Shown piece by piece: positions 918-63,106 of a stretch of 64,000 nt of DNA. Source of the DNA: an uncultured bacterium (GTDB taxonomy: Bacteria > Patescibacteriota > JACMRA01); the NCBI GenBank assembly GCA_963704645.1, contig OY969926.1, forward strand, positions 480,001-544,000, written 5' to 3'. Made by a program: the position numbers and the translations under genes. The notes under the pieces are model-generated. The model saw nothing but the letters and a program-made list of their open reading frames with translations. It was not told where the DNA came from and did no database searches. How positions within the stretch are numbered: position 1 is the stretch's first letter; each line of letters starts with the position of its first letter.

Positions 918-2375
918 ATGGAAAAGAATAGCCAAAATTCTATAAAAGTACCAAAAGCTAAATCTAAAATTGTAGGTCAAATTGAAAATAATGTTAAGCA
1001 GGAAATTATTCCCGTATCGCAAAGTTTGGTAATTGGAGATGTTGGCAGCGGTAAAACTGCTGTGGCTTTTATGGTTGGTTTAAACTACTTACTTGGCCTT
1101 CCTGGTGCCGAAGTTGCTTTGTTGGCGCCAACTGAAGTACTGGCATTTCAGCATTACAATAATTTAGTTGAGTGGGTAGAGAGAATGGGATTAGTTAGTA
1201 ATGCCAATTTTGATAAAGAAGCGAAAGATAAACCTCCTTCCAAAAATGAAAAAAATATTCTTCAGGCAAATAGTTTAAAGAATGAAAGTAATTACATAAC
1301 AACAGTTTTTGCTTCGGCTAAAGACATTCGCATTAATAATGTAAAAGTTAGTAAAAAACAGTTAGACTTGGAAATTAAAAATTACAGTAAAATTTTTTGG
1401 GTTGGAACCCATGCTTTGTTGTTTAAAAATTCTATCAAGCCAGACTTGGTTATGGTTGATGAACAGCACCGATTTGGAGTAAGTCAACGTCAATCTTTAA
1501 ATTCTAAAAATAAAAATGGAAGCCTTGAAGAAAAAAATTTAACTGGTAAAAACAACGAAAATTTGGCCAGCCATTTTGTTTCCTTTACAGCAACTCCAAT
1601 TCCCAGAACGCTATCTTTAACTTTACTAGATACACTTCAGCCACATTTCTTGCAACCAATTCGTGCTAAGCAAATTACAACCACTGTTCTACCCTTCGAA
1701 AATTTCGACGAAAAAATTGTACCAGCAATAACTTCTCATTTGGTTAAAAATAGAAAGGTTTTTTTAATCGTTCCAAAAATTGAGGAAGACGAAACTGATC
1801 AGCTTTGGAATGTTTCCAAATTAAATACCTGGGCTGAAAAATATTTTCCCCAAAAGGTAATGCAAGTACATGGAAAAGTTAAAGACAAAAGTGCAGTGTT
1901 GAAAGAATTTGCTAGTTCCAATCAGTTCCAAATTTTGGTTTCAACTACGGTTATTGAAGTTGGGGTAGACATTGTTGAAGCTTCTTTGATGGTTGTTTTT
2001 AATTCAGAGCGGTTTGGATTGGCTGCATTGCATCAGTTGCGTGGGCGTGTAGGGAGAAATAAATATACCGATAATCAATGTATTTTACTTACTAATAATT
2101 ATTCGGTAAATAAGCCGCGTTTGCAGTTTCTAACAACCAGCTTAGATGGTTATGAAATAGCCGAAAAAGATTTACAACTTCGTGGCAGCGGTGATATAAT
2201 TGGTAAGCAACAATCTGGTTTTTTAGATGAAATTGAAGATGTGGTTGGTTTAGACACATCTATTTATGAAGATATGAAAAATTTTGTAGATGACTTAGAC
2301 TGGCCAGATTTAAAATCTCTTCCACGTTTAAAAAACTATTTAGAAAAAACAGTACAAGAAATCTGGCAAGAGTAG
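918..2375 (+). CDS. recG: RecG helicase core lacking the N-terminal wedge domain
   Basis: GDVGSGKT, APTEVLA, DEQHRFG, TATPIPRTL, LHQLRGRVGR, DLQLRGSG. Confidence 0.9.
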   Translation: MEKNSQNSIKVPKAKSKIVGQIENNVKQEIIPVSQSLVIGDVGSGKTAVAFMVGLNYLLGLPGAEVALLAPTEVLAFQHYNNLVEWVERMGLVSNANFDKEAKDKPPSKNEKNILQANSLKNESNYITTVFASAKDIRINNVKVSKKQLDLEIKNYSKIFWVGTHALLFKNSIKPDLVMVDEQHRFGVSQRQSLNSKNKNGSLEEKNLTGKNNENLASHFVSFTATPIPRTLSLTLLDTLQPHFLQPIRAKQITTTVLPFENFDEKIVPAITSHLVKNRKVFLIVPKIEEDETDQLWNVSKLNTWAEKYFPQKVMQVHGKVKDKSAVLKEFASSNQFQILVSTTVIEVGVDIVEASLMVVFNSERFGLAALHQLRGRVGRNKYTDNQCILLTNNYSVNKPRLQFLTTSLDGYEIAEKDLQLRGSGDIIGKQQSGFLDEIEDVVGLDTSIYEDMKNFVDDLDWPDLKSLPRLKNYLEKTVQEIWQE

Positions 2376-2726
2376 AGTATATTTCAGATTAATATTTTAA
2401 TTACAAACTAAGTCTAAATGTTTTTGCATTTAATTTCTAGGTATGCTAAACACAATTTGTGAGTTAATGAACGAAAACTAAGAGATAAAATAATCTGTTT
2501 AGATTTTTGTGTTTGTGGTGTATAATATTTTAACTTTAAAACAATTTTAGAAACTATGTGTTCATATTTTGTACTTAAATTAGAGTATTTTTTACGTTAA
2601 AATGTGTATCTATTGTACATTCAGAATAATTTGTACATTAAAATTGGCAAAGTAATAAATAATTTTAAGATTAAATAATACTTAGTAATTTACTAAGTTA
2701 CAAACCAGTATAATTTGGAGAAACAG

Positions 2727-3233
2727 ATGTCTAAATCAATTATTATTGTAGAAGACAATCTAGAATATGTAGAAGCCCTGAAAGCCACATTGGAAAACTA
2801 TGGCACTATATTTACACCTAGAATTTTATCAGGTTATGCTGCTGCTGTAGAATTTTTGGCTGAAATTTGTGAAATCGTTGACAGGGCAATTGAACATAAT
2901 TTTGAGACAATTATTTTATTGGATCATTTTCTGTTTGGGCAAAGCCAACATCCATACTGCGGAGGTCAGATTCACCGCTGGGTTATGTGGCATTTTGGAA
3001 GGACGAATCCAGAATACGGAATAAAATTCATATCAATTTCGTCTGCAACCCAAATGGCTCAGCTTAATTATATGAATATGGATGGTCTTGAACCGAACGT
3101 AAACTATTCATCAATCCCGCATTTCTCTGAAAAAGCAAACTTATGTTCTTACTTTGGTATACTTGAAGAAGGCGATCCTGAGTTGGAAAAACATAATTCA
3201 GCTTTAAAAAAGATTGTTAGCTTGTTCAATTAG
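2727..3233 (+). CDS. Divergent stand-alone receiver-domain-like protein
   Basis: IIIVEDN and IILLDH motifs; GGAG upstream of ATG 2727. Confidence 0.5.
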   Translation: MSKSIIIVEDNLEYVEALKATLENYGTIFTPRILSGYAAAVEFLAEICEIVDRAIEHNFETIILLDHFLFGQSQHPYCGGQIHRWVMWHFGRTNPEYGIKFISISSATQMAQLNYMNMDGLEPNVNYSSIPHFSEKANLCSYFGILEEGDPELEKHNSALKKIVSLFN

Positions 3234-3357
3234 GCATTAGTCTATAGCTCTAAGCTAAACCCAACCCCACCTTGGCCTTCCTTGGTGGTTTATTTTTGTA
3301 AAATGAAGCCTTGTTAACATTCTTCATAATCTGTTTTTTGAATAGTTAAAAACCAAA

Positions 3358-17322: not shown

Positions 17323-17420
17323 ACTAATGAAAATATTTTTCACAGTATCTTTTGTCAATTTACTAAGCTTTACAAAAATAATTATAAGTTAGAATAATAT
17401 ATATTATGTTTAAATGGTTT

Positions 17421-17511
17421 GGAAAAGTGCCAGAGTGGTTGAACGGGACGTTCTCGAAAAACGTTGTACCTTTAAAAAGTACCGAGGGTTCGAATCCCTC
17501 CTTTTCCGCCA
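17421..17511 (+). tRNA. tRNA-Ser(CGA)
   Basis: Anticodon arm ACGTT-CTCGAAA-AACGT; long variable arm; G73; CCA. Confidence 0.97.
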
Positions 17512-17549
17512 ACAACAAAAATAAAAAATTTAATGATAATCTTATTTTG

Positions 17550-18401
17550 ATGTTATCATTCTTTGATAAAAATCGCCATTGGTGGGTTTCAATTGTAGTT
17601 ACCATTTTCACAGTATTTTTCTTTCTAACAATTAATTCTCCACAACTATTTTTGCAATTTGAGTTTTTTAATCAAAGATGGCTTGGTTTAACAATTTTGT
17701 CAGTGTCACTGGTTTTTATATGGTTTACTAGTAGAACTAAGTTTTGGAGTACTTGGCGTTCTTTTTCAATTTGGTTTCAAGCTTCTTCTTTGCTTGTTTT
17801 TAGTTTTATATATTATATTAGACTTAATCAAAGCCAGGTGGGTATTGCTGGTTTGAATTTAAATACAAATATAGTATTTATACCTTTAACTGTACTAGTT
17901 TTTATTGTGGTTTACCAGTTATATAACCAGCCAAATTTATCTAGAGTCGTTTTATTATCTACAGTTGGCCTTTATTTTCTACAAACATTTTCAATTATAT
18001 CTTTTGTGATGTTTGATAGAACTAGTTTAAGATTTTTCAATCAAGATTGGATAAGTAAATTTTTTGAAATTAATCCTTTATTTTTAATTTTAATTGTTAG
18101 TACAATTATAGGTTTGGTTTCTACAATTAATTTAAATCTTAAAAAGAATCAGTCTAGAATTTTGGCATGCATTATTTTCAGCAGTATTATTTTCTCTACA
18201 ACTTTAGTTATTCAAGGACTTCCTTTTACTTATTGGTATAAAGTTTTGTTGTCATTGGTTTTATGGGATTTTCTATTCAGACCAATGCACCAAGTTTTTG
18301 AAGGTTTAACAGACCCTAAGTTTTCCGACAAATTATTTGTTTCTTCTGTATACCATGGTCTTTTAAGTATAGTAATAATAATTACAGCATTAATTGCATA
18401 G
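17550..18401 (+). CDS. Polytopic membrane protein
   Basis: Many TM segments; start moved downstream of tRNA-Ser. Confidence 0.75.
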   Translation: MLSFFDKNRHWWVSIVVTIFTVFFFLTINSPQLFLQFEFFNQRWLGLTILSVSLVFIWFTSRTKFWSTWRSFSIWFQASSLLVFSFIYYIRLNQSQVGIAGLNLNTNIVFIPLTVLVFIVVYQLYNQPNLSRVVLLSTVGLYFLQTFSIISFVMFDRTSLRFFNQDWISKFFEINPLFLILIVSTIIGLVSTINLNLKKNQSRILACIIFSSIIFSTTLVIQGLPFTYWYKVLLSLVLWDFLFRPMHQVFEGLTDPKFSDKLFVSSVYHGLLSIVIIITALIA

Positions 18402-18406: not shown

Positions 18407-19483
18407 ATGATCAGTAAAATTACCAAATTAAATAAACTTCTACCTTTTGTTGCAATTGGTACCGTTGCAGACTGCCAAAGTGTTTTAGAGCCAACAAACC
18501 GCTTGTTAATAAAGTCTGGTCTACAGGTTTTAAATAAATCTAAACTTTATGATGGTTTAGAAAATCTTATTTCTAACTTAGACTTTAGAGCTAAAATTAA
18601 TTTTGGCTATGCCTTAGATTCTCAAGATCTTGGGTATGTTTTATCTCCTATTCTAAACGCTTCGGGCAGAATATCTCATGCTGAACTGTCCATTAAAACT
18701 TTAATAGGTGCAGATGAAAAAAATGCTACAGACTTAATTGATATAAATACACAAAGGAAAAACATTGTTAAAAGCTATATGGAAGAAATTAATTTAGAAG
18801 TGCTTAATCAAGTTAAATTAAAACAGAAGTTTATATTTTTAATGGGAAGCTGGAATAAAGGAATAGTTGGCTTACTTGCTTCCCGTATTCAAAATCAAAC
18901 AGGCTTGCCCGTAGCTATAGTGTCTTTAGACGAAACCGAAGCTACTGGAAGTTTTCGCGCTCCAGAATCTTATAATTTGCCGTTAATACTTGCTGAATGT
19001 GATCAATTCTTAAAAAAGTTTGGAGGGCATCCCCAAGCTGCTGGCTTTACACTAGACCTAAAGAATTTAGAGGTATTTAAAGAAAAGCTTTATTCAGTAA
19101 TTGATCAAATTAATATTAAAGATATTCCTGTTGATCCAAATTTTAAAAAAATAATTAAACTAAATTATAATGAAGTTAACAGCACTTTGATAAAATCAAT
19201 TTTAAGTTTAGATCCATTTGGACAAGACTTCCCAAGTCCAATAGTTACTATTGCTCAAAACGAAATGAAAGATATGAAATTTGTAGAAATGTCTGGTGGG
19301 AAACATTTAAAAACTAAAATTAACGATGTAGATGTTGCGTTTTTTAATTTAAACGATGAAGTGAGGAGTATTATCAATAACAATCGTACAGGTAATGCAA
19401 ACTTTCAATTTAGTGTAGGTAAAAATTTTTGGAACAAGCAGTATACTTATCAATTAATATTTCAAAACATAAGCATGGTGTAG
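18407..19483 (+). CDS. recJ: RecJ C-terminal half (DHHA1/OB), lacking the DHH catalytic N-terminus
   Basis: AIGTVAD, PILNASGRI, GIVGLLASRI, GGHPQAAG, LDPFG, GKHLK. Confidence 0.85.
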   Translation: MISKITKLNKLLPFVAIGTVADCQSVLEPTNRLLIKSGLQVLNKSKLYDGLENLISNLDFRAKINFGYALDSQDLGYVLSPILNASGRISHAELSIKTLIGADEKNATDLIDINTQRKNIVKSYMEEINLEVLNQVKLKQKFIFLMGSWNKGIVGLLASRIQNQTGLPVAIVSLDETEATGSFRAPESYNLPLILAECDQFLKKFGGHPQAAGFTLDLKNLEVFKEKLYSVIDQINIKDIPVDPNFKKIIKLNYNEVNSTLIKSILSLDPFGQDFPSPIVTIAQNEMKDMKFVEMSGGKHLKTKINDVDVAFFNLNDEVRSIINNNRTGNANFQFSVGKNFWNKQYTYQLIFQNISMV

Positions 19484-22520: not shown

Positions 22521-22639
22521 ACACCGGTTTTGGCCTATTTTCCCCAGTCTCTGCAGACTAGTATCATCAGCGTAAATGCGTTTCAAGACTCTGTTCGGAA
22601 TGTGAAGAGTTGGTGCCACACCACTTGAAAAACCGATGT
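22521..22639 (-). rRNA. rrf: 5S rRNA (unlinked, divergent)
   Basis: About 119 nt; helix I ACATCGGTTTT/AAAACCGGTGT; CATTCCGAAC, GAAAC, GATGATACT, GGGAAAATAGG motifs. Confidence 0.9.
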
Positions 22640-23754: not shown

Positions 23755-25530
23755 TTATCCACCAACATAGAAATTTAAGTTATATGAGTCTCTTAACAAA
23801 GTGTTACCTGAAGTTGCAGTTGCAATTACATTGTAGTAATTGACGGTTTGATCTACTGCTGCAAGAGTAGTTTCGCACGCACCATTTGTGATATTTGATG
23901 TATATGTTCTTAGAATATTTGCTGGAATGTATGGTCTAGGGAATCTAATAAATTCAAAAGTGCAGGTTCCAGTTGTAAGAGTTACTCCGTTTGAATCTTT
24001 CAATTCGTCATATACAATTTTCATTGTTCCATCTTTAAATTTCTGTGTTGTATTACAGTTGGTGTTTTCTCTAGTCACTAAGTCGAAGTTTACAGTTGTG
24101 TTGCTTAAACCTACACAGTAAAGTCTTCCAGATCTTACAGCAACAATTGCTGGGGCTAAAGTAATATTTCCACTATCAACTGGTGTTCCAGCGTCGTTGT
24201 ATTGTAATAAAACATTTCTATCTCCAGCAGTTCCTCCAGTTGTTGGAATTGGACAGACAAGTGATGCAGCAGCAGTTCCATTTCCAGTAATTGTACAGTC
24301 AGTACCGTAACCGCCAGAAACAGGAGTCAAATCTGTAGCTGCATTTCCGTTTTGACTTGTAGTTCCATTAATACCATTGGTAGGTGCGGCATAGTTATTA
24401 GCAGCGTCTCCTGTTAAAGGAAATACACAAGATGAAGAAGTTCCAATTGGGGTTGGGTTTGGAGTGCATACACCAGTTCCAACATTTGCAGGGGCTATTA
24501 CTGTTGGAGGGATGGTCGCGGCTTGCAAAGTTACATTTCCTTTATCTGCAGGACTTCCTGTTCCACCATATTGTAGTAAAACATTTCTATCTCCAGGTGT
24601 TCCTCCAGTTGTTGGAATAGTTGTACAACTTAATGCTGCAGATGCAGTTCCATTGCCAGTAATAGTACAAGCAGGGCTATAACCACCAGAAACAGGGGTT
24701 AAATCTGTGGCTGCATTTCCATTTTGACTTGTTGAACCTGCAATTCCACCAGAAGGTAGAACATAGTTATTTTGTGCGTTTCCTGTAAGTGGGAAAGTGC
24801 AGTTATAAGTTGTGTTAACAGTGGTAGATGATGGAGTACATGTTCCATTGCTTGTGTTAGCAGCAGCAATAGTTGTTGGGGAAGATGCAACTACACTAAT
24901 ATTTAAGGAAGCAGCTCCTCCGCTTGCACCATCCAAAGTTGTTTCAGCTATAATTGCAAAGTTAACTGTATTGCCGGCAACTAGACCTTGATCAGATCTA
25001 AGTGTTGCTCTGAAAGTAATGACACCAGTTTTAGCAGCTGGCCATGTGCCTGGGTCTGAAGGTGAGGCTTCAGGTGCTGAAGTTAAGGTTGCAGGGCCTG
25101 CAGTTGACTGACCATTACATGGTGCAGTTAAAGTGGTTGCAGATCTTGGTCTGTATGAAAGTGAAGTAGATCCGTCACCAGCTACCGTAACAATGCCTGA
25201 AGCGTCACTTACACAATACATAGGAGAGGTTGTTCCTCCAAATTGTTCTGTTAAAGAATTAGCTACGTAGGTTAATTTATTATTCAAAAATATTGTTGTT
25301 ACAGCGTTAGCTATAGAGTCACTATCTCCTGCGTTAATATACTGTATTGTAAATACACCAGTTTGCCCAGGTGATAAAGATACAACTGAAGCTGCCTGTG
25401 CAGTTTGATTATTTCTGTTTATTAAAGAATAACTTACTCCTAATATTGATATTAATAATATAGCTAAAGCAGCTATACTAATTTTGCCCATTCTAGATTT
25501 AAAAAAACTATTAATATTTTTTAGTGTCAT
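23755..25530 (-). CDS. Modular Cys-rich surface protein
   Basis: N-terminal domain homologous to 15252; two ~120-aa repeats (TSQNGNAATDLTPVSGGY). Confidence 0.85.
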   Translation of the reverse strand: MTLKNINSFFKSRMGKISIAALAILLISILGVSYSLINRNNQTAQAASVVSLSPGQTGVFTIQYINAGDSDSIANAVTTIFLNNKLTYVANSLTEQFGGTTSPMYCVSDASGIVTVAGDGSTSLSYRPRSATTLTAPCNGQSTAGPATLTSAPEASPSDPGTWPAAKTGVITFRATLRSDQGLVAGNTVNFAIIAETTLDGASGGAASLNISVVASSPTTIAAANTSNGTCTPSSTTVNTTYNCTFPLTGNAQNNYVLPSGGIAGSTSQNGNAATDLTPVSGGYSPACTITGNGTASAALSCTTIPTTGGTPGDRNVLLQYGGTGSPADKGNVTLQAATIPPTVIAPANVGTGVCTPNPTPIGTSSSCVFPLTGDAANNYAAPTNGINGTTSQNGNAATDLTPVSGGYGTDCTITGNGTAAASLVCPIPTTGGTAGDRNVLLQYNDAGTPVDSGNITLAPAIVAVRSGRLYCVGLSNTTVNFDLVTRENTNCNTTQKFKDGTMKIVYDELKDSNGVTLTTGTCTFEFIRFPRPYIPANILRTYTSNITNGACETTLAAVDQTVNYYNVIATATSGNTLLRDSYNLNFYVGG

Positions 25531-25583
25531 ATTTATTTTTGTTTTACTTATCGTATTATATTTTATTGTATTGAAGTTGTAAA

Positions 25584-26327
25584 TTAATTTTTTGGTGTAA
25601 CTTCAAAAAACACTAAATCTATTTTACCTTTACTATCTCCTTCATCGCTAAGGTAAGAATAAATTCTACTGTTTTCTCCAACAGCTTTTGTGGTGGCCAT
25701 TTCTACATCAAAAATAATTTTACCTGCGTCACCTGCCATAACCTGACTAAAGTTTTTATCTGTGCTGCCAGGGCCATATTGAATTACGTTTTTAGTTGAA
25801 TCATACAAATTCGTATCATTAATATTAATTGCTTCTTTTCCAGAAATTTCTTCTTTCATAGAGTTTTTTACTAAAGAAAGACCATCTCCTAGTTTAATTA
25901 AGACACTTCCTTTTTTCATACTTTCGTCACCAATGTTTGAATAGTTTACAGTCATTCTGTACTTTTGACCTTGTCTAATTTTGAAAAGAGTGAATCTTTC
26001 GCTTGGCTTTTCAGTTTCTGGGTCGAATGGCTTACTATTAAAATCTGCAAGCGATATTTCTGCATTGTTTTTATCTTCGGCACTTAAACTTTGTAATGGT
26101 ACATTCTGTTTAGTATCCTGTAAGCTGGCTGTGTTACTTGGACTAGCTTGTGTTTGTTTATCATTAGCATTGCCTGAATTTTTGGTATTAAGAGTAAGTG
26201 TTAAAACTACTATAATAATTAGAAGTGTCGATGCTACACCCCCAATAACAAGTAGTGTTTTTTTGTTGTTTTCTTTTTTTGCATGCAAAGACTTTTTGTC
26301 CTTTTCGTGAATGTTTGTTTCTGTCAT
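25584..26327 (-). CDS. Membrane-anchored protein with a DUF11-like Ig domain
   Basis: TM helix; GQKYRMTVNYSNIG...LGDGLSLVKNS. Confidence 0.6.
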   Translation of the reverse strand: MTETNIHEKDKKSLHAKKENNKKTLLVIGGVASTLLIIIVVLTLTLNTKNSGNANDKQTQASPSNTASLQDTKQNVPLQSLSAEDKNNAEISLADFNSKPFDPETEKPSERFTLFKIRQGQKYRMTVNYSNIGDESMKKGSVLIKLGDGLSLVKNSMKEEISGKEAININDTNLYDSTKNVIQYGPGSTDKNFSQVMAGDAGKIIFDVEMATTKAVGENSRIYSYLSDEGDSKGKIDLVFFEVTPKN

Positions 26328-26592
26328 ATTTATTTATGTTTTAAAGATAAACTTATTATACAGTAAGAATTACTTTTAATCAAAATAGGAGTGTTATTAA
26401 TTATAGAATCTATTTAAGGCATTATTAAAATTCTTAAGAATCAGCATCTTTAAAAGATAAGCCAATTCTCTCAATCATGAATCTTTCAATTAACTGAGTA
26501 TAAAGCTTGAGCCTTAGTTTATAATTTATTTTCTAAGATAGGACATCAAAAAAAGAGGGTTGCCCCTCTAATTCGTTAATATTTAAACTATA

Positions 26593-26940
26593 CTATTTAA
26601 TTTCTTCAGAAGCCTTTTCAAGTCTATCTTTAACTTCTCCTTTTACGCTTTCTTTAACTTCTTCTATCTTTTCTTTTACATTTTCTTTAACTTCCTCCTC
26701 CTTTTTTAATAAATTTTTTCCAGCAACTCTGGCTTTATTTAATAATTCTTCTTTAGTTTTATCTGCGTATTTTATTGCTTTAGCTGCCTCTGTGCTAATT
26801 TTATTTCTATTTTCTAAGCCAGTTTTTGGATTGAAAAAGTGAGAAACGAAAAATCCGGTAATACCAGAAAAGATGCCAGTGAATAATGTAGCTGCAAATA
26901 TTTTGCGCTGTCTTTGTTTGTTGAATTTTTGGAAGAACAT
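26593..26940 (-). CDS. YtxH-like protein
   Basis: TM helix then FNPKTGLENRNKI and K/E-rich helices. Confidence 0.6.
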   Translation of the reverse strand: MFFQKFNKQRQRKIFAATLFTGIFSGITGFFVSHFFNPKTGLENRNKISTEAAKAIKYADKTKEELLNKARVAGKNLLKKEEEVKENVKEKIEEVKESVKGEVKDRLEKASEEIK

Positions 26941-27041
26941 ACTAAGCCCAAATTATTCTAAATAATAGGTACTGTCAAATAGTAAGGCTGAATGAATAAT
27001 TTTTGACATTAGGCTTTAAGCAAGGTATCATACTGGTAAAC

Positions 27042-29702: not shown

Positions 29703-29832
29703 TGGGAATTTATATAGATCAATATAAATCAATCATTTTCTAACTTTAATTATAGTTAGTTGGGTAAACTTAATTTATTTATTGACAATTTTATATTTTA
29801 TAAGCAATTAATGAGTAATTATTAATAGCCAA

Positions 29833-30468: not shown

Positions 30469-30666
30469 TTTTCAGCTCCGTAAGGGGCTTTTTTTATGCA
30501 TTAAATTATTCCTAAAGCTGTAGTTTCACTAAATTGAAGAAGCTTAAACGTTTTTAGATTTCAAAACAAAATGTTTATAAAGTAGTACTTTTATCTTTAT
30601 CACTGAAGTTCTTGTAATAGTTTCAATTCAAAAAGTTTAATCAAAATTGTAATTAATTTATTCAAA

Positions 30667-32148: not shown

Positions 32149-32279
32149 TTTGTATTTTGGTCAAAAATGGAGGTTTATTAGAGCAAAAACACCGTAAATC
32201 TGCAGTGAGACTGACAAATTACTTGGGTTTTTGGGTTGGACAGCTAATTTTCTTGTGCAAAATTAATCTATTTTGGGTT

Positions 32280-32515: not shown

Positions 32516-32676
32516 CAATAAATTGACCTCTGTTTCCAGAGGTGTGTGGGTAATCCCAATTTGTTATCTAATAGTAAATACTTTTTATTTTTGTGTCAAA
32601 GTTGAGAGCTATTTATTAAAACGCCGTAAATTTGCAGTGGCATTGAGAAATTGCGTGGGTTTTTGGTTTTTGGATC

Positions 32677-34347: not shown

Positions 34348-34445
34348 ATTTTGCCTAAAAATATAATTCTTAGGGTTTTATGTAAACCAAAAAATACTAA
34401 GTGTGTTTTATTTTTATGGCTTAGACCCTGAAACAAGTTCAGGGT

Positions 34446-35525
34446 TGTATATGTCATAAATTTCAGTGACAGAATTTAAATCTTCTTTTAGATTATTTCT
34501 GTTAAATTTTTAACAACATATATTCTAACATAATATGCGTTTAAACGATAATACTTTAACCAAGAATTACCTTAGACATATGAAACAATTAGTTCAAGAA
34601 TATGAATTAATTAAAACAAGGAAACATCCTAGATATGTATTTGTAAATGAATTCTACAAAGCAAATAATATAACTAGACAAAACTTCATCAAATATTACA
34701 ATAGGTATAAATTAGTTTCTATGGATAGTAGTTTAATTCCAAAGAAAAGAGGGAGAAAGTTTGGTAGTTTAAAAAGTATTCCTTTCATACAGAATAAGAT
34801 TATTGAACTTAGAAACCAAGGATTTGGTAGATATGAGATACACGATTTCCTTTTACCTAAGTATGGTAAATATACTCCTTCACCTACGACTATTTACAAT
34901 ATACTATTAAAGAAAGGATTGAATAGATTAGATCCAAGAGTAATTCAAACTAACAAAAGAAGAATCATTAAAGATAAAGCAGGAGAATTAGGCCATATGG
35001 ATTGCCACAGACTAGCTAAAGGAATACTGGAGGGTGAAAAGAATGAATACTTTCTACTAAGCTTAACAGATGACTTTACTAGAATAGTTATGACCATACT
35101 AATACCTAATCTGCAAGCTCTAACAGTTATGCTTTATACTCAAAGATTATTAGCAGTATTCAATAGATGTTACAACATAGATTTTCAAAGTATATTAACA
35201 GACAATGGACCCGAATTTGGAAGGAAAGAAACAAAAGAAGAAAACAAACAAAACCATCCATTTGAAAGATTACTGTTAGAATACAACATTAAGCATAAGT
35301 ACACTAGAGCCTACAGGCCACAAACCAATGGTAAAGTAGAAAGATTCTGGAGAAGTTTAGAGGAAGAATTACTTAGAGAGCAAGTATACCCAGATAAAGA
35401 AAGTTTAGAAGAAGAATTATTTGAATATTGTTGCTACTTCAACCATATTAGAAGACATCAAGGTATTGGTAATATTACTCCCTATGAGAAACTTAATTCT
35501 GTCACTGAATAAGTTGACATATACA
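34446..35525 (+). mobile_element. IS481-family element copy 1 (1080 bp)
   Basis: TGT...ACA ends; 31-bp imperfect TIR TGTATATGTCA-N5-TTCAGTGACAGAATT; AGGGT duplication. Confidence 0.95.
34535..35512 (+). CDS. IS481-family DDE transposase
   Basis: GELGHMD, TDNGPEF, PQTNGKVERF, RRHQGIG. Confidence 0.95.
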   Translation: MRLNDNTLTKNYLRHMKQLVQEYELIKTRKHPRYVFVNEFYKANNITRQNFIKYYNRYKLVSMDSSLIPKKRGRKFGSLKSIPFIQNKIIELRNQGFGRYEIHDFLLPKYGKYTPSPTTIYNILLKKGLNRLDPRVIQTNKRRIIKDKAGELGHMDCHRLAKGILEGEKNEYFLLSLTDDFTRIVMTILIPNLQALTVMLYTQRLLAVFNRCYNIDFQSILTDNGPEFGRKETKEENKQNHPFERLLLEYNIKHKYTRAYRPQTNGKVERFWRSLEEELLREQVYPDKESLEEELFEYCCYFNHIRRHQGIGNITPYEKLNSVTE

Positions 35526-35601
35526 AGGGTGACATGGCTCGCTCGCAGATCTCAAACTTGTCTATTTACAAAGTGTAATTGGTGGGCTAAACTAAGCTAG
35601 A

Positions 35602-52063: not shown

Positions 52064-52227
52064 ACTGAAGTATAGGAATAGTTACTATGCTATTTGTCAA
52101 GGAAATATAGATAAATAGAGTTATTAAAGTTAAAAACATCTTCACGGCATGTTCCACGAAAAATGTAACAAAAAATTCTTCGTTTTACCGTTATTCAATG
52201 ACCTATACCCTGAAACAAGTTCAGGGT

Positions 52228-53307
52228 TGTATATGTCAACTTATTCAGTGACAGAATTAAGTTTCTCATAGGGAGTAATATTACCAATACCTTGATGTCT
52301 TCTAATATGGTTGAAGTAGCAACAATATTCAAATAATTCTTCTTCTAAACTTTCTTTATCTGGGTATACTTGCTCTCTAAGTAATTCTTCCTCTAAACTT
52401 CTCCAGAATCTTTCTACTTTACCATTGGTTTGTGGCCTGTAGGCTCTAGTGTACTTATGCTTAATGTTGTATTCTAACAGTAATCTTTCAAATGGATGGT
52501 TTTGTTTGTTTTCTTCTTTTGTTTCTTTCCTTCCAAATTCGGGTCCATTGTCTGTTAATATACTTTGAAAATCTATGTTGTAACATCTATTGAATACTGC
52601 TAATAATCTTTGAGTATAAAGCATAACTGTTAGAGCTTGCAGATTAGGTATTAGTATGGTCATAACTATTCTAGTAAAGTCATCTGTTAAGCTTAGTAGA
52701 AAGTATTCATTCTTTTCACCCTCCAGTATTCCTTTAGCTAGTCTGTGGCAATCCATATGGCCTAATTCTCCTGCTTTATCTTTAATGATTCTTCTTTTGT
52801 TAGTTTGAATTACTCTTGGATCTAATCTATTCAATCCTTTCTTTAATAGTATATTGTAAATAGTCGTAGGTGAAGGAGTATATTTACCATACTTAGGTAA
52901 AAGGAAATCGTGTATCTCATATCTACCAAATCCTTGGTTTCTAAGTTCAATAATCTTATTCTGTATGAAAGGAATACTTTTTAAACTACCAAACTTTCTC
53001 CCTCTTTTCTTTGGAATTAAACTACTATCCATAGAAACTAATTTATACCTATTGTAATATTTGATGAAGTTTTGTCTAGTTATATTATTTGCTTTGTAGA
53101 ATTCATTTACAAATACATATCTAGGATGTTTCCTTGTTTTAATTAATTCATATTCTTGAACTAATTGTTTCATATGTCTAAGGTAATTCTTGGTTAAAGT
53201 ATTATCATTTAAACGCATATTATGTTAGAATATATGTTGTTAAAAATTTAACAGAAATAATCTAAAAGAAGATTTAAATTCTGTCACTGAAATTTATGAC
53301 ATATACA
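52228..53307 (-). mobile_element. IS481-family element copy 2 (1080 bp)
   Basis: Near-identical to copy 1 (one synonymous AAC/AAT change noticed); AGGGT duplication. Confidence 0.95.
52241..53218 (-). CDS. IS481-family DDE transposase
   Basis: Same protein as 34535..35512. Confidence 0.95.
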   Translation of the reverse strand: MRLNDNTLTKNYLRHMKQLVQEYELIKTRKHPRYVFVNEFYKANNITRQNFIKYYNRYKLVSMDSSLIPKKRGRKFGSLKSIPFIQNKIIELRNQGFGRYEIHDFLLPKYGKYTPSPTTIYNILLKKGLNRLDPRVIQTNKRRIIKDKAGELGHMDCHRLAKGILEGEKNEYFLLSLTDDFTRIVMTILIPNLQALTVMLYTQRLLAVFNRCYNIDFQSILTDNGPEFGRKETKEENKQNHPFERLLLEYNIKHKYTRAYRPQTNGKVERFWRSLEEELLREQVYPDKESLEEELFEYCCYFNHIRRHQGIGNITPYEKLNSVTE

Positions 53308-53332
53308 AGGGTGACAGCTTGCTACAACATCA

Positions 53333-58209: not shown

Positions 58210-60036
58210 ATGCTCTCCCAAATTCCCAATTCCCCACAAACAATAATTGCCATTTATGCCAGTGAAAATATGGGTGTAACCATGGTGTATTTGGGTTGGG
58301 TAGATTCTGTAGAAAATAGTTCAATCTCAACCGAGCAGCAAGCAAGCATTGATTTAAATACAGAAGAAGAATTGTCAGAATTTCAAAATTGGGTTTCTTC
58401 CCAAAGCTCTAAATTATTATTTTTATATGTTAAAACTTTTGCACATCAAATTGGTTTATTTGGTAATTTCCCTAAAAATTGTTTTGATATTTCTTTAGGT
58501 TTAGAATTGGGAAATTTTAATATTTCCAAAACTACCCCGATTGCTATGCAATCACCCCTTACCAAGGGTACTGATGTTGCTAAAGAAGATGCACATCCCG
58601 AGGCTTCTGCTCAGTCCTTTTTTGAGGGGGCATTGCCTTCTAATAATAATTCTAAACCGGAGTATTTAATTCAAACTTATTTGTTTTTGCAGCAAAATTT
58701 GCCTTCCCAAATATTTAAATTGTGGCAGGAAATTGAATCACCTTTAAGTTTTGTTCTAGCTAAAATTGAAAAAGATGGAGCATACATTAACAAGCAATCT
58801 TTGCAAGAAACAGACACACAACTAACTTTAAAAGCCAACCAGTTGCAACAAGAAATATTGCAAAAATTTAATCAAATTTTAGGTAGCAGTGAAGCTGACC
58901 CAACCCAAAAAACTATTAATTTAAATAGTCCTGCTCAATTAGGCCAAGCTTTAAAACAAGGTGGATATTTATTAAAAGAAACAAAAACTGGTAAAATTTC
59001 TACAGATAGAGCGGTGTTGGAAGAGCTTCTTTTAACTGATGAAAATAATTTAATTCAACCCATTTTAGATTACCGCACAGTTGCCAAATTAAGTTCAACT
59101 TATACCCAAACCTTTTTGCAGGTGCTAGATGAAAACAGTAGGATTCACACCCAGTATAACCAGCTAGGTTCGGCTACTGGTAGAATTTCTAGTAACAACC
59201 CTAATTTGCAAAATATTCCAATTCGCAATCCAGAATATGGTCCGTTAATACGTTCTTGTTTTGCAGCTGAAAAAGGAAATAGCTTAATTTGTGCAGATTA
59301 TTCCCAAATAGAATTACGTTTGCTGGCTCATTTTTGCGGGGACGAAGTTTTAACCGAAGCTTTTGCTTTGAACCAAGATATTCACCAAAGAACGGCCTCG
59401 GAAATTTTTGATGTGCCTTTAGTTAGTGTTACTAAACAGCAACGCAGATTGGGTAAAACCTTGAATTTTGCTTTGGTTTACCAACAAGGAAGCTTTGCCA
59501 CAGCAGTACAACTTGGAATTTCCCAGAAAGAAGCAGCAGCATTTATTAACAAGTATTTTGATAAATTTAGTAAGGTAAAACCTTTTATTGAAAGCACAAT
59601 TACAAAAGCTAAAGAAACAGGCTTCGTAGAAACTTTGTTTGGTCGCAGAAGGCATTTTCAGAACTTAAATTCAAGCATGGTAATGTTACGTAAAATAGAC
59701 GAACGGGCAGCATTTAACGCCGTTTTACAAGGTAGCAACGCCGATTTAATTAAAAAAGCCATGGTGCAATTACACCAAATTTTTGAAACAGGGGAAACCT
59801 CCAGCCTGCAAACTTTAAGCAAAGAAGATAAGCAGGTTTTGTCAGGCTCAAAAATACTTAATCAAGCTAAAATGATATTACAAGTACACGATGAATTGAT
59901 TATAGAAGCGCCAACCCAAATTGCTAAACAAGTAGCTAAAATTGTTGAAGAAGTAATGCAATTAAACCAACCCTTAAAAGTTCCAATTTTAGTTGAGGCA
60001 GGAATTGGGGCTAATTGGAGAGATGGGAAGGAGTAG
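58210..60036 (+). CDS. polA: DNA polymerase I, polymerase domain without the 5'-3' exonuclease
   Basis: TGRISSNNPNLQNIP, ADYSQIELR, KTLNF, QVHDEL. Confidence 0.93.
   Translation: MLSQIPNSPQTIIAIYASENMGVTMVYLGWVDSVENSSISTEQQASIDLNTEEELSEFQNWVSSQSSKLLFLYVKTFAHQIGLFGNFPKNCFDISLGLELGNFNISKTTPIAMQSPLTKGTDVAKEDAHPEASAQSFFEGALPSNNNSKPEYLIQTYLFLQQNLPSQIFKLWQEIESPLSFVLAKIEKDGAYINKQSLQETDTQLTLKANQLQQEILQKFNQILGSSEADPTQKTINLNSPAQLGQALKQGGYLLKETKTGKISTDRAVLEELLLTDENNLIQPILDYRTVAKLSSTYTQTFLQVLDENSRIHTQYNQLGSATGRISSNNPNLQNIPIRNPEYGPLIRSCFAAEKGNSLICADYSQIELRLLAHFCGDEVLTEAFALNQDIHQRTASEIFDVPLVSVTKQQRRLGKTLNFALVYQQGSFATAVQLGISQKEAAAFINKYFDKFSKVKPFIESTITKAKETGFVETLFGRRRHFQNLNSSMVMLRKIDERAAFNAVLQGSNADLIKKAMVQLHQIFETGETSSLQTLSKEDKQVLSGSKILNQAKMILQVHDELIIEAPTQIAKQVAKIVEEVMQLNQPLKVPILVEAGIGANWRDGKE
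58528..58572 (+). repeat. 45-bp hairpin element in frame within polA
   Basis: AAAACTACCCC-GATTGC-TAT-GCAATC-ACCCCTTACCAAGGGTACT. Confidence 0.85.
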
Positions 60037-60945: not shown

Positions 60946-61045
60946 TACTCTAATTGTATTTATTGAAATGTTTTTAAACTTAACGATTTTTTAACCAAAG
61001 AAAAAACCGTCCATATTTCGAACGATTTTTAAAAGTTCTTTGCTT

Positions 61046-61751: not shown

Positions 61752-61964
61752 ATTTCAAATTTTCAAACTCCACAAGTTCCCAGTCCGTCGCTTTTTAGTA
61801 ACGGCTTTTTTATTGGTTTAAAATCTCCCATAATTAAGTGCCCAAATGGCGATAGTAAATATCGCCGCTACACGGTTTTATTAAATACAAAGAAAACGCC
61901 CGAAGGCGTAATCAATTTGTTTTATAGTAAATCTTACGTTTGTGGCTCGTAAACTGCTCCACTA

Positions 61965-62390
61965 CTAGGCTTCTACTGTAACTCCCATGCTGCGGCATGT
62001 TCCTTCTACCATTTTCATGGCTTGGTCTACATCGTAGCAGTTTAAATCTTCCATCTTTCTTTCGGCAATGGTTCTTATTTGAGCTTTAGTAATTTTTCCT
62101 ACCTTCTTTCTTAATTGGTCTGAAGCGCCAGAAGTTATACTAATAGCTTGCTTTACTAATTCTGAAACAGCTGGAGTTTTAAGAACGAATTCGAAACTTC
62201 TGTCATCGTATACAGTAATTAAGGCTGGAATGCCACCTACCATGTTGGCGGTTTGAGTGTTAAAATCTTTAACAAACTGCATTAGGTTAATACCTAAAGG
62301 TCCTAATGTTGAACCTACCGGAGGCCCTGCTTGAGCTTTCGCTGCTGGAATTACTATTTTTACAACTGCCTTAATCTTTTTGTTGGCCAT
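61965..62390 (-). CDS. rplK: 50S ribosomal protein L11
   Basis: PPVGSTLG, DRSFEFVLKTP, GTCRSMG. Confidence 0.97.
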   Translation of the reverse strand: MANKKIKAVVKIVIPAAKAQAGPPVGSTLGPLGINLMQFVKDFNTQTANMVGGIPALITVYDDRSFEFVLKTPAVSELVKQAISITSGASDQLRKKVGKITKAQIRTIAERKMEDLNCYDVDQAMKMVEGTCRSMGVTVEA

Positions 62391-62437
62391 ATATTTAACA
62401 ATTGAAAGGAAATAGGCCTTAATTGTCAAGAAAAAAG

Positions 62438-63106
62438 CTAGTCTTCAACTGTAAATTCTAGTCTTTTTAGACCTTGGCCAATAGACTTTTGTTTCAAAAT
62501 TACAAATTTACCAATTTCTTTGGAATTACTAATATGCGGTCCTCCACAAAACTCGCGTGAGTAAACTGTGCCTTGGCCATCTTTTAAGGTATAAATACTA
62601 ACAATGTCGCCGTATTTTTCGCCGAACAAACCAATTGCACCAAGTTTCGCAGCCTCTTCTTGTTTCATTTCTAATTTTTCCATCTCCAAATGTCTATCAA
62701 TAATTGCTTGAACCTTGTCTTGGATAGAGTTAATTTCCTCGGTGCTTAAACTATTGGTAAGTGTAAAATCGAATCTGGCTTTTTCGTTGGTTATAGCCGA
62801 ACCTTTTTGTTTAACATCTGTGCCAAAAGTGTCTCGTAAAACTGAGTGTAAAATATGAGTAGAAGTGTGTAACTTCCTTGTTTTTTCTGAATCTTGATCT
62901 AGACCAGATTTAAATTGTCCAGCTGAAGTTGTTTGAGATAGTTTTTGATGTTCAGAAATTAAACTATTTAGCAATTCAGAGTCTAGTTTTAAGCCGTGAC
63001 TTTCTAAAATATCTTCTGAAATTTCAATTGGTACGCCAAAAGTTTGATATAAATCCCAAGTTTTTTCGGCTAGAAATTGTGGAGTAATTTGTTCATTTTT
63101 GTTCAT
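62438..63106 (-). CDS. alaS: Alanyl-tRNA synthetase C-terminal part (helical segment plus editing domain)
   Basis: DLYQTFGVP, HTSTHILH, QKGS, RFDF, LFGEKYG, EFCGGPH. Confidence 0.85.
   Translation of the reverse strand: MNKNEQITPQFLAEKTWDLYQTFGVPIEISEDILESHGLKLDSELLNSLISEHQKLSQTTSAGQFKSGLDQDSEKTRKLHTSTHILHSVLRDTFGTDVKQKGSAITNEKARFDFTLTNSLSTEEINSIQDKVQAIIDRHLEMEKLEMKQEEAAKLGAIGLFGEKYGDIVSIYTLKDGQGTVYSREFCGGPHISNSKEIGKFVILKQKSIGQGLKRLEFTVED

What the first reader, a model, noticed from the sequence alone, without database searches (positions are those of the whole stretch)
918..63106. Several core enzymes are present only as clean C-terminal halves (possible split genes)
Seen: RecG starts about 40 aa before Walker A (no wedge domain). 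RecJ starts just before AIGTVAD (no DxD or DHH motifs). AlaRS starts at the DLYQTFG helix (no aminoacylation domain). PolA lacks the 5' nuclease. All frames are intact, no upstream remnants are visible, and recG has its own TTGACA promoter. Known: AlaRS is essential, and dispersed split genes including AlaRS occur in Nanoarchaeum. Inference: systematic gene fission with subunits assembling in trans.
Basis: partly seen in the sequence, partly recalled or inferred. Interest (0 to 1): 0.7.

Follow-up and report, generated by a model that had tools for sequence, protein, structure and literature searches.

The report
Essential genes split into dispersed pieces
In this small bacterial genome several core enzymes (alanyl-tRNA synthetase, RecG, RecJ and others) are each encoded as two or three separate genes scattered around the chromosome, a state shared by a whole class of related bacteria and otherwise known mainly from the archaeon Nanoarchaeum.

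Summary
The window (G000:C1:480001-544000, one 1.27 Mb contig) carries C-terminal pieces of RecG, RecJ and AlaRS. The missing N-terminal pieces exist as intact genes elsewhere in the same genome. They are RecG-N (277 aa, 38 kb away), RecJ-N (282 aa, 32 kb away) and AlaRS-N (303 aa, 566 kb away). A third AlaRS piece (118 aa) lies 2 kb upstream of the window's piece, so AlaRS is in three pieces. No full-length copy was found.

The pieces tile intact orthologues end to end, with no room for inteins. A reciprocal genome screen added split ValRS, UvrC and DnaE.

The splits are conserved. AlaRS is split in 26 of the class's 27 species genomes and intact in 11 of 11 outgroup families. RecG, UvrC and DnaE are split in most class genomes, RecJ and ValRS in about half. 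dN is far below dS for the eight pieces where it could be computed. A RecG-N plus RecG-C complex model passes its controls.

The PolA/5'-nuclease separation is ordinary. The "TTGACA promoter" is not supported. No report of this in Patescibacteria was found.

The parts
918..2375 (+). recG C piece (485 aa): the SF2 translocase module, running from just before Walker A to the C-terminus. Its partner, the recG N piece (277 aa: wedge/OB domain, linker helix and Q-motif), lies outside the window at G000:C1:442306-443139 (-).
   Evidence: Pfam finds DEAD, Helicase_C and RecG_dom3_C. The C piece tiles G022 RecG residues 262-642 and the N piece tiles residues 20-274. A profile of the N piece hits PDB 1gm5 RecG residues 121-383, E 2.4e-9. 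The class has separate frames while outgroups have 676-706 aa frames. The complex model scores 0.73 against 0.00 for the best control.
18407..19483 (+). recJ C piece (358 aa): DHH motif IV (GTVAD), DHHA1 and the RecJ OB domain. Its partner, the recJ N piece (282 aa: DHH motifs I-III), lies outside the window at G000:C1:465846-466694 (-).
   Evidence: Pfam finds DHHA1 and RecJ_OB in the C piece and DHH in the N piece. The pieces tile G022 RecJ at 84-187 and 221-558. On solved RecJ structures they map to 71-186 and 220-559 of 8y30. Ten of 20 class genomes are split at the same junction.
62438..63106 (-). alaS C piece (222 aa): the end of the tRNA-recognition domain plus the editing domain, with HxxxH and CxxxH motifs present. 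Its partners lie outside the window: the alaS middle piece (118 aa) at G000:C1:545104-545460 (-), equal to extrapolated window coordinates 65104-65460, and the alaS N piece (303 aa, catalytic core) at G000:C1:1109290-1110201 (-).
   Evidence: The three pieces cover Pfam PF01411 positions 2-259, 273-375 and 379-454, and the C piece also has tRNA_SAD. They tile G022 AlaRS at 13-271, 295-390 and 401-606. The N piece maps to E. coli AlaRS 7-272 and the middle piece to 281-374. AlaRS is split in 26 of 27 class genomes.
63175..64000 (-). Unknown ORF 'ins2' (346 aa; its start is outside the window at extrapolated coordinate 64215). It is one of two genes lying between the alaS middle and C pieces. 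The other, 'ins1' (284 aa, with hydrophobic stretches that look membrane-spanning by eye), is at extrapolated coordinates 64227-65081.
   Evidence: Neither has a Pfam family above threshold. Both are kept as intact ORFs, in the same order (middle piece, ins1, ins2, C piece, rplK), in the congeneric genome G001. dN/dS is 0.31 for ins1 and 0.17 for ins2.
58210..60036 (+). polA without a 5'-nuclease domain (608 aa). The 5'-nuclease is a separate 324-aa gene at G000:C1:373307-374281 (+).
   Evidence: Pfam finds DNA_pol_A at residues 210-604 only. PF02739 has a single hit, in a 325-aa frame. A stand-alone nuclease also occurs in 4 of 11 outgroup families, so this layout is ordinary for the phylum.

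Best explanation
These are true, dispersed split genes. In this lineage (the whole class in the genome library, phylum Patescibacteria by a source's name for a homologue) several single-chain informational enzymes were broken into two or three separately encoded polypeptides.

Each piece has its own start and stop codon and is translated on its own. The pieces then reassemble non-covalently, through the contacts that are intramolecular in the ancestral enzyme.

- RecG: the N piece carries the wedge/OB domain, the linker helix and the Q-motif. It docks on the ATPase core of the C piece, so the nucleotide site is built from both chains.
- RecJ: the break lies inside the DHH catalytic domain, between motif III (DHH) and motif IV (GTVAD). 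The metal site therefore needs both chains.
- AlaRS: three chains carry the catalytic core, the first part of the helical tRNA-recognition domain, and the rest of that domain plus the editing domain.

Origin (inferred): fission happened in place by a stop and a restart at a linker. Genome G037 shows that stage, with adjacent pieces. Insertions and rearrangements then dispersed the pieces.

Shown here: the gene anatomy, the absence of intact copies, conservation and purifying selection. Inferred: expression, assembly and activity.
For: 1. Complementary pieces and no intact copy. Pfam searches of the whole 1.27 Mb contig gave:
- one DHH hit, in a 287-aa frame;
- three AlaRS hits covering profile positions 2-259, 273-375 and 379-454 in separate frames;
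- one RecG-C match.
The pieces tile the intact G022 proteins end to end: AlaRS 13-271/295-390/401-606 of 613; RecJ 84-187/221-558 of 563; RecG 20-274/262-642 of 668.

2. Catalytic motifs are intact in the translations: DYDTD, DHH and GTVAD in RecJ; GDVGSGKT and DEQH in RecG; HxxxH and CGGPH in the AlaRS C piece.

3. Conservation.
- AlaRS is split near profile position 260 in 26 of the class's 27 genomes, and 10 of 27 have three pieces. It is intact (603-644 aa) in 11 of 11 outgroup families.
- All 25 N pieces in the tree form one clade (SH-aLRT 100; G012's, which carries a large insert, was left out). The one intact in-class gene (G006) sits among the outgroups (SH-aLRT 95).
- RecG-N and RecG-C are separate frames in 16 of 19 class relatives and are both missing from the same 3. 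Outgroups have 676-706 aa frames.
- RecJ is split at the same junction in 10 of 20 class genomes, and the N and C calls agree genome by genome.

4. More split genes appear in the same genome and class: ValRS, UvrC and DnaE. The reverse screen found no G000 protein split in G022.

5. Selection. Between G000 and G001, dN is 0.12-0.42 against dS of at least 1.39, giving dN/dS of 0.03-0.30 for eight of nine pieces tested.

6. About 300-aa stand-alone AlaRS-N proteins are common in public data. The best 120 clusters listed are 293-350 aa long, 59-100% identical, and cover 96-100% of the query.

7. Complex model of RecG-C plus RecG-N: score 0.73, best of 3 controls 0.00, partner pLDDT 85, and the runs agree in at least 90% of contacts. 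That mark was reached by 58 of 80 solved complexes and 2 of 110 mismatched pairs. An intact RecG structure is solved, so this pass may come from the model's memory of it.

8. Precedent. The N. equitans AlaRS alpha and beta subunits are active together (passages read in PMC11392972).
Against: - There is no direct evidence of expression, assembly or activity. No RNA run holding the locus was listed.
- No Shine-Dalgarno-like motif is visible by eye in the 60 nt upstream of any of the 15 gene pieces and partner genes examined, and the promoter scan is at chance level.
- The start of the alaS middle piece is a TTG chosen by ORF rule only.
- dS is saturated, so the dN/dS values are rough. For RecG-N it could not be computed.
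- The RecG complex pass may reflect the model's memory of intact RecG.
- Foldseek placed the RecG-N model (pLDDT 85) next to generic OB-fold proteins, not RecG. The link to RecG rests on sequence profiles.
- The G000 assembly has at least one probable single-base indel, in rpoD, so it is not error-free.
- Estimated completeness is 87%, although the genome is one contig.
- The three-piece AlaRS state is scattered on a poorly resolved gene tree. The adjacent pieces in G037 could be a sequencing error.
- Some class genomes have unsplit UvrC, ValRS or RecJ, so the history includes either repeated fission or replacement.
Confidence: 0.85

Rival explanations
1. The fragments are decaying pseudogenes left over from gene loss in a reduced, host-dependent genome.
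For: The genome is small. Estimated completeness is only 87% for a single contig. It carries 8 plus 4 near-identical IS copies and at least one frameshifted gene.
Against: - Every piece is an open frame with its catalytic motifs intact.
- The same break points persist across up to 19 genera.
- dN is far below dS for the eight pieces where it could be computed.
- AlaRS is indispensable (established knowledge), and no other copy exists.
- RecG-N and RecG-C are kept together or lost together.
Confidence: 0.03
2. The ORFs are free-standing paralogues with functions of their own (an AlaX-type trans-editing protein, a DHHA1 protein, a wedge-less helicase), and the full-length genes lie in unassembled sequence.
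For: Stand-alone AlaX proteins exist, and the AlaRS C piece hits solved AlaX-like chains 2e1b and 9iuw at E about 3e-8 to 5e-8. Completeness is 87%.
Against: - The C piece also carries AlaRS profile positions 379-454, which lie outside the editing domain.
- The three pieces are exactly complementary, with no overlap.
- 26 of 27 class genomes lack an intact alaS while 11 of 11 outgroups have one.
- The genome is one contig.
Confidence: 0.04
3. The pieces are joined after transcription or translation, by split inteins or by trans-splicing introns, so the cell makes normal full-length enzymes.
For: From memory, with no call: cyanobacterial DnaE is encoded in two distant halves that a split intein joins. 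The DnaE of this genome is also split.
Against: - Alignment to intact orthologues leaves only 2-14 unaligned residues at most junctions (AlaRS, RecG, RecJ-C start, DnaE body end). That is far too few for intein halves.
- The extra 100 residues at the end of RecJ-N are also present inside unsplit in-class RecJ.
- Rfam at gathering thresholds finds only tRNAs and 5S rRNA in the window, with no intron family next to the three junctions.
- Each piece ends in a stop codon and begins with a start codon.
Confidence: 0.05
4. The splits are artefacts of assembly or sequencing (frameshifts, chimeric contigs).
For: rpoD in G000 is broken by what looks like a one-base indel, whereas 5 of 5 relatives examined have one 739-749 aa frame. 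The adjacent alaS middle and C pieces in G037 differ in frame.
Against: - The partners lie 2 kb to 778 kb apart, some on opposite strands, within one contig.
- The same junctions recur in independently assembled genomes of up to 19 genera.
- At least 120 public protein clusters match the roughly 300-aa AlaRS-N piece.
Confidence: 0.02

Closest known systems
Dispersed split protein genes of Nanoarchaeum equitans and other Nanoarchaeota, including AlaRS alpha/beta
   Same: - Informational enzymes are encoded as separate, distant genes without inteins.
- AlaRS is among them.
- The N. equitans alpha subunit corresponds to E. coli AlaRS residues 1-368 (passages read in PMC11392972). The second break here follows the stretch aligned to E. 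coli 281-374, so the two breaks fall at nearly the same place.
- The splits are lineage-specific and derived rather than ancestral (passage read in PMC6349945).
   Different: - This lineage is bacterial, not archaeal.
- AlaRS has a further break near E. coli residues 272-281, giving three pieces.
- The set of split genes differs: RecG, RecJ, UvrC, ValRS and DnaE.
- The splits are traced here over 27 genomes of a class, with nested and patchy states.
- No split tRNA genes were looked for.
Isolated bacterial split enzymes: Aquifex aeolicus heterodimeric LeuRS, and cyanobacterial DnaE halves joined by a split intein (both recalled from memory, no call)
   Same: A normally single-chain synthetase or polymerase is encoded by two genes.
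   Different: Those are single cases per genome, and the cyanobacterial DnaE is spliced into one chain. Here at least six enzymes are split in one genome, and the junctions leave no room for inteins.
AlaX, the free-standing AlaRS editing-domain homologues
   Same: The window's 222-aa ORF contains the editing fold with its HxxxH and CxxxH motifs, and it hits solved AlaX-like chains.
   Different: AlaX coexists with a complete AlaRS. Here the ORF also carries part of the tRNA-recognition domain and is the only editing module of the only AlaRS.
Nuclease-less PolA with a stand-alone 5'-3' exonuclease (FEN-like) gene
   Same: PolA (608 aa) lacks the 5'-nuclease, which is a separate 324-aa gene.
   Different: This layout is not special to the class. 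It is found in 4 of 11 outgroup families, while 7 of 11 are fused. It is therefore ordinary background rather than part of the unusual fission set.

Membership tests
Alanyl-tRNA synthetase (class II, Pfam tRNA-synt_2c plus tRNA_SAD) | A complete aminoacylation and tRNA-recognition region | tested here: met
   The three ORFs together cover profile positions 2-259, 273-375 and 379-454. They cover 13-606 of the 613-aa intact G022 enzyme. No single ORF does this alone.
Alanyl-tRNA synthetase (class II, Pfam tRNA-synt_2c plus tRNA_SAD) | An editing domain with HxxxH and CxxxH zinc motifs | tested here: met
   tRNA_SAD scores E 7.7e-13. Both motifs can be read in the translation.
Alanyl-tRNA synthetase (class II, Pfam tRNA-synt_2c plus tRNA_SAD) | A C-Ala domain | tested here: not met
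   It is absent here. It is also absent from the 603-644 aa intact enzymes of the 11 outgroup families, which end with the editing domain. This is a trait of the phylum, not of the split.
RecG helicase | An N-terminal wedge domain next to an SF2 translocase that has the RecG-specific C-terminal motif | tested here: met
   The translocase has DEAD, Helicase_C and RecG_dom3_C in the window ORF. The Pfam RecG_wedge model finds nothing in the genome. However, the 277-aa N piece aligns to residues 20-274 of intact G022 RecG (iE 4.8e-9). Its profile hits PDB 1gm5 RecG residues 121-383 (E 2.4e-9). The structure model contains an OB-like beta barrel. The two parts lie on separate genes.
RecJ exonuclease (DHH family) | DHH motifs I-IV, DHHA1 and the RecJ OB domain | tested here: met
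   Motifs I-III and Pfam DHH are in the 282-aa N piece. Motif IV, DHHA1 and RecJ_OB are in the window ORF. The parts lie on separate genes.
Nanoarchaeum-type dispersed split gene | Pieces that are complementary, non-overlapping, at separate loci, with no intact copy and no intein | tested here: met
   The pieces lie 2 kb to 778 kb apart.
Nanoarchaeum-type dispersed split gene | Pieces that associate and restore enzyme activity | not testable with these tools
   There is only a model for RecG: score 0.73 against 0.00 for the best control. No biochemistry is available.
AlaX trans-editing protein | A free-standing editing domain coexisting with a complete AlaRS | tested here: not met
   There is no complete AlaRS in the genome, and the ORF carries extra AlaRS recognition-domain sequence.

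The most novel reading that the evidence does not exclude
An entire class of Patescibacteria runs translation, replication and repair with enzymes assembled from two or three separately encoded chains. The enzymes are AlaRS (three chains), ValRS, DnaE, RecG, RecJ and UvrC. Fission keeps recurring within the clade, including further splits of RecJ, UvrC and AlaRS. One AlaRS break falls at nearly the site used by Nanoarchaeum. This would be the first bacterial counterpart of the nanoarchaeal split-gene syndrome. It points to a lineage-specific tolerance of, or mechanism for, gene fission. It may also explain why marker-gene completeness estimates for the class (64-93% in the genomes held) fall below those of 10 of its 11 phylum neighbours (94-100%; the eleventh is at 87%).
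Probability: 0.6. Interest if true: 0.85.

Novelty: new variant of a known kind. Interest (0 to 1): 0.75.

Why it matters
- It provides a natural bacterial system in which the modules of an aminoacyl-tRNA synthetase (catalysis, tRNA recognition, editing) are separate proteins. The same holds for the modules of several DNA enzymes. This makes questions about domain co-operation and the modular origin of synthetases testable with natural parts.
- It shows that the nanoarchaeal split-gene syndrome is not an archaeal oddity. It arose independently in an ultra-small bacterial lineage, partly at the same sites.
- It has practical consequences. Annotation pipelines label the pieces as "related proteins" or fragments; one homologue of the AlaRS N piece is named "alanine--tRNA ligase-related protein" by its source.
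- Single-copy-marker completeness estimates are probably biased low for this class. This last point is an inference.

Tried and rejected
- Pfam RecG_wedge found nothing in the genome. The N piece was found only with an outgroup RecG N-terminus, at phmmer E 0.007, and was then confirmed.
- Foldseek of the RecG-N model returned generic OB-fold proteins, not RecG.
- The search for related loci with the alaS middle piece was swamped by ordinary AlaRS genes. Of the 80 loci kept I examined 15, chosen by hand: the best hit plus those titled Saccharibacteria, Parcubacteria, Paceibacterota, Gribaldobacteria or Microgenomates. Twelve had complete unsplit frames of 573-665 aa, and 3 ran off a locus end. 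The scan gave no help on the class itself.
- The protein-atlas search gave only generic AlaRS fragment clusters.
- A stop-codon recoding test was negative. Of 662 ORFs of at least 200 aa, 18 end in TGA. Reading TGA as sense lengthens ORFs no more than reading TAG as sense does.
- Split inteins and introns were considered and rejected.
- No RNA holder was listed for window:61900-64000, and only small-share DNA holders appeared.
- No AU test was run on where G006 AlaRS sits in the tree (one search used the quick method).
- Literature. Eight full-text searches were run. The seven aimed at bacteria, CPR or Patescibacteria (all but) found no paper describing split protein genes there. Their terms combined "split genes", "gene fission", "split alanyl-tRNA synthetase", "split protein", "alaS", "uvrC", "recJ", "aminoacyl-tRNA synthetase", "fragmented", "Nanoarchaeum", "bacteria" and "fission" with CPR or Patescibacteria where named.
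- Papers seen. Passages only of PMC6349945, of bioRxiv 10.64898/2026.05.13.725050 (there "split genes" refers to frameshift detection) and of PMC11392972. Other titles were seen only as search listings. Supplements were not opened. Subscription-only papers are not in the library, so an earlier report cannot be excluded.

Full report
**Where the window lies.** The window is G000:C1:480001-544000 of a genome held as one contig of 1,272,640 bp. GC content is about 33% and estimated completeness is 87%. A source names a 63%-identical homologue of one of its proteins as coming from a "Patescibacteria group bacterium". The intact AlaRS genes of Saccharibacteria, Parcubacteria and Microgenomates records have the same short architecture of about 600 aa as the phylum-level relatives used here.

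**The observation.** All four truncated genes are present as described.
- recG-like, 918-2375 (+), 485 aa. Walker A is at residues 40-47. Pfam finds helicase domains and RecG_dom3_C, but no wedge.
- recJ-like, 18407-19483 (+), 358 aa. It starts just before GTVAD and has DHHA1 and RecJ_OB only.
- alaS-like, 62438-63106 (-), 222 aa. It covers Pfam AlaRS positions 381-454 plus tRNA_SAD.
- polA, 58210-60036 (+), 608 aa, polymerase domain only.

Nothing upstream is a remnant of the missing parts. The ORF ahead of recJ-C is a membrane protein, and its called start overlaps a tRNA-Ser. Ahead of recG-C there is a 500-bp spacer with a terminator-like hairpin.

The "TTGACA promoter" is a lone hexamer 29 nt before the ATG. 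The scan lists no promoter there, and the number of sites in the region equals chance (7 found, 7.1 expected).

**The missing halves exist elsewhere in the same genome.**
- The Pfam DHH model has one hit, in a 282-aa ORF at 465846-466694 (-). It carries motifs I-III (DYDTD, VDCG, DHH) and ends in the helix that normally precedes motif IV.
- The AlaRS model has three hits, covering profile positions 2-259, 273-375 and 379-454:
  - 1109290-1110201 (-), 303 aa;
  - 545104-545460 (-), 118 aa, 2 kb upstream of the window's piece and just outside the window;
  - the window ORF.
- The RecG wedge model finds nothing. However, the N-terminal 250 residues of an outgroup RecG picked out a 277-aa ORF at 442306-443139 (-). 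That ORF ends with the Q-motif that precedes Walker A in RecG.
- The 5'-nuclease is a 324-aa gene at 373307-374281.

**The pieces are complementary.** They were aligned to the intact proteins of G022, a complete 786-kb genome of another family of the phylum.

| Enzyme | Residues of the intact G022 protein covered by each piece | G022 length |
|---|---|---|
| AlaRS | 13-271 / 295-390 / 401-606 | 613 |
| RecJ | 84-187 / 221-558 | 563 |
| RecG | 20-274 / 262-642 | 668 |

Only 2-14 residues remain unaligned at most junctions, so intein halves cannot be there. The longer tail of RecJ-N is also present inside unsplit in-class RecJ.

Mapping onto solved structures gives the same picture.
- AlaRS-N matches E. 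coli AlaRS 7-272 and the middle piece matches 281-374.
- The C piece matches the editing domain of archaeal AlaRS.
- The RecJ pieces match 71-186 and 220-559 of PDB 8y30. The break is therefore inside the DHH catalytic domain.
- A profile of 16 RecG-N sequences hits T. maritima RecG (1gm5) residues 121-383 at E 2.4e-9.
- The AlphaFold model of RecG-N (pLDDT 85) has a beta barrel and a long helix. Foldseek matches it only to generic OB folds.

**It is systematic.** I called ORFs in G000 and in G022 and compared them in both directions.
- Of 611 G022 ORFs of at least 150 aa, 251 had a hit in G000. Five of them were tiled by two or more G000 ORFs.
- Three of the five are dispersed splits: AlaRS, RecJ and UvrC.
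- Two are adjacent overlapping frames. One is prfB-like. The other is rpoD, which looks like an indel, since 5 of 5 relatives have one 739-749 aa frame.
- In the reverse direction, none of 832 G000 queries (253 with hits) was tiled by several G022 ORFs.

Searching the missing parts of 21 one-sided cases added three more: RecG-N, a ValRS C piece and a DnaE C piece. Pfam agrees with these assignments.
- ValRS: the body (842 aa, tRNA-synt_1) is at 655800-658328. The anticodon-binding and C-terminal arm piece (268 aa) is at 663570-664376.
- UvrC: the GIY-YIG half (354 aa) is at 1075325-1076389 (-). The RNase H/HhH half (339 aa) is at 1104251-1105270 (-).
- DnaE: the 949-aa gene ends after the HhH domain. 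A 359-aa ORF with the OB fold (E 1.8e-4) is at 960493-961572. This is the weakest case on its own.

**Conservation.** The library holds 27 species genomes for the class: family f1 with 26 (including G000) and family f2 with one. Eleven other families of the phylum served as outgroups.

*AlaRS*.
- All 11 outgroups have one 603-644 aa frame.
- 26 of 27 class genomes are split near profile position 260.
- Ten of those (G000, G001, G003, G007, G009, G010, G012, G014, G032, G037) also have the middle piece on its own.
- Only G006 is intact.

In a tree of the catalytic region, the 25 N pieces included form one clade (SH-aLRT 100). G012's N piece carries a large insert and was left out. G006 sits on a long branch among the outgroups (SH-aLRT 95), which suggests replacement by a foreign intact gene. 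The three-piece genomes are scattered on this poorly resolved tree.

In G037 the middle and C pieces are adjacent, 36 nt apart and in different frames, whereas its congener G002 has them fused. In G000 and G001 two conserved unknown genes lie between them. In other genera they lie on different contigs.

*RecG*.
- The C piece is in 416-575 aa frames in 16 of 19 class relatives.
- The N piece is in 229-299 aa frames in the same 16.
- Both are missing from the same three genomes (G007, G010, G012).
- All 11 outgroups have 676-706 aa frames, and the N piece matches their N-terminal parts in 8 of 11.

*RecJ*.
- It is split at the same junction in 10 of 20 class genomes.
- In 4 of those the C half is split again.
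- It is unsplit (527-656 aa) in the other 10 and in all 11 outgroups.

*UvrC*. It is split in 17 of 20 class genomes (further split in G012 and G017). It is fused in G005, G008 and G013.

*ValRS C piece*. It stands alone in 10 of 20, is fused in 7 and is unclear in 3.

*DnaE C piece*.
- It stands alone in G000 and in 17 of its 18 family-f1 relatives searched; it was not found in G003.
- It is fused in the f2 genome (1404 aa).
- It lies inside 1142-1270 aa frames in the 9 of 11 outgroups where it was matched.

*5'-nuclease*.
- It stands alone in 19 of 20 class genomes.
- It also stands alone in 4 of 11 outgroups, with 7 fused. The PolA layout is therefore ordinary for the phylum.

**The pieces are under selection.** Between the two species of the genus (G000 and G001), NG86 gives dN 0.12-0.42 and dS 1.39-5.4 (saturated). 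dN/dS is 0.03-0.30 for alaS-N, the middle piece, alaS-C, recG-C, recJ-N, recJ-C and the two inserted genes. dS could not be computed for recG-N.

The public protein collection holds many stand-alone AlaRS-N proteins. The best 120 clusters listed are 293-350 aa long, 59-100% identical, and cover 96-100% of the query.

**Assembly.** I modelled RecG-C (alignment of 10) with RecG-N (alignment of 16).
- The score is 0.73 and the best of 3 controls is 0.00.
- Partner pLDDT is 85, and the runs agree in at least 90% of contacts.
- The mark was reached by 58 of 80 solved complexes and 2 of 110 mismatched pairs. These counts hold only roughly, because my own alignments were used.
- The interface joins N-piece residues 206-273 (helix and Q-motif) to C-piece residues 28-61 around Walker A and to residues 441-482.
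- An intact RecG structure is solved, so the pass may come from memory. It shows likeness to RecG, not proof of binding.

**How it most likely works.** The polypeptides are made separately and re-form the ancestral fold. In RecG and RecJ the active sites are composite, so neither piece can work alone.

For AlaRS, the catalytic core, the segment aligned to E. coli 281-374, and the remaining recognition segment plus the editing domain are three chains.

The passages I read in PMC11392972 place the G3:U70-reading residues at E. coli Asn303 and Asp400. By the mapping these would fall in the middle piece and the C piece respectively. That placement is an inference.

The same paper states that the N. 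equitans alpha chain corresponds to E. coli residues 1-368 and that alpha plus beta are active together. The second break here is therefore nearly the nanoarchaeal one.

**How the pieces are co-ordinated is unknown.** No Shine-Dalgarno-like motif is visible by eye upstream of any of the 15 gene pieces and partner genes examined. The alaS middle piece, ins1, ins2, the alaS C piece and rplK form a tight same-strand cluster in G000 and G001, so those two pieces may be co-transcribed.

**Origin.** G037 shows the in-place stage. IS elements are plentiful: 8 copies of a 1,082-bp rve element, two of them in the window, and 4 copies of a 1,062-bp element. One copy ends about 41 bp from the uvrC-N stop. 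These copies are near-identical and therefore recent, so they show only that the genome rearranges, not what caused the old breaks.

**Comparison and novelty.** The closest known system is the split-gene set of Nanoarchaeota. Bacterial single cases (Aquifex LeuRS, cyanobacterial intein-joined DnaE) are recalled from memory. Seven full-text searches aimed at CPR, Patescibacteria or bacteria found no description of dispersed split genes there. I rate this a new variant of a known kind. It is bacterial, affects at least six enzymes, includes a three-piece AlaRS, and is traceable as nested and recurrent events across a class.

**Limits.**
- No expression or biochemical data are available.
- Only one complex could be modelled.
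- The split-gene screen used one distant outgroup, so the list is a minimum.

Noticed in passing
G000:C1:1111590-1113753 (outside the window): rpoD is read as two overlapping ORFs in different frames: regions 1.2-2, then regions 3-4 fused to TsaE. Five of 5 relatives examined have one 739-749 aa frame. G000 therefore probably has a one-base indel, either an assembly error or a recent mutation. The sigma-70-TsaE fusion itself is conserved in the class.
   Followed up: partly
L220:480-3404 (G012:C72): In G012 the AlaRS N piece is a 974-aa frame. About 680 residues carrying guanylate kinase, Ham1-like and serine-hydrolase domains are inserted in frame inside the catalytic domain (Pfam). No intein domain was found.
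   Followed up: partly
window 34445-35526 and 52227-53308: There are two inverted copies of a 1,082-bp IS with an rve-type integrase (ORFs 34535-35512 + and 52241-53218 -). The genome has 8 copies at 99.4-100% identity. A second 1,062-bp element has 4 copies, one of them about 660 bp from recJ-N.
   Followed up: partly
whole genome G000: TGA is a rare stop: 18 of 662 ORFs of at least 200 aa end in TGA, against 385 in TAA and 259 in TAG. TAG ends 13 of the 15 genes examined. There is no sign that TGA is read as sense. An RF2-like gene with the usual two-frame layout is at 674486-675456.
   Followed up: partly
window 17406-17511: The called start of the membrane-protein ORF 17406-18401 overlaps tRNA-Ser (17421-17511), so the real start must be further downstream. 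recJ-C follows this ORF after 5 nt and may be co-transcribed with it.
   Followed up: no
window 22522-22637 (-): A 5S rRNA gene stands alone. No 16S or 23S rRNA was found in the 64-kb window.
   Followed up: no
window 23755-34347: A cluster that looks mobile. It holds a 899-aa T4SS coupling-protein-like ORF (27003-29702), several ORFs with no known family, and an AAA_21/AAA_15 ATPase (32677-34347, -) next to an IS copy.
   Followed up: no
class genomes G007, G010, G012: These three genomes lack detectable RecG-N and RecG-C. They also have RecJ in three or more pieces and AlaRS in three pieces, so they look like the most fragmented members of the class.
   Followed up: no
genome table: Marker-gene completeness is 64-93% for the 27 class genomes, and 87% for the single-contig G000. 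It is 94-100% for 10 of the 11 outgroup genomes (87% for the eleventh). Split marker genes may be depressing the estimate.
   Followed up: no
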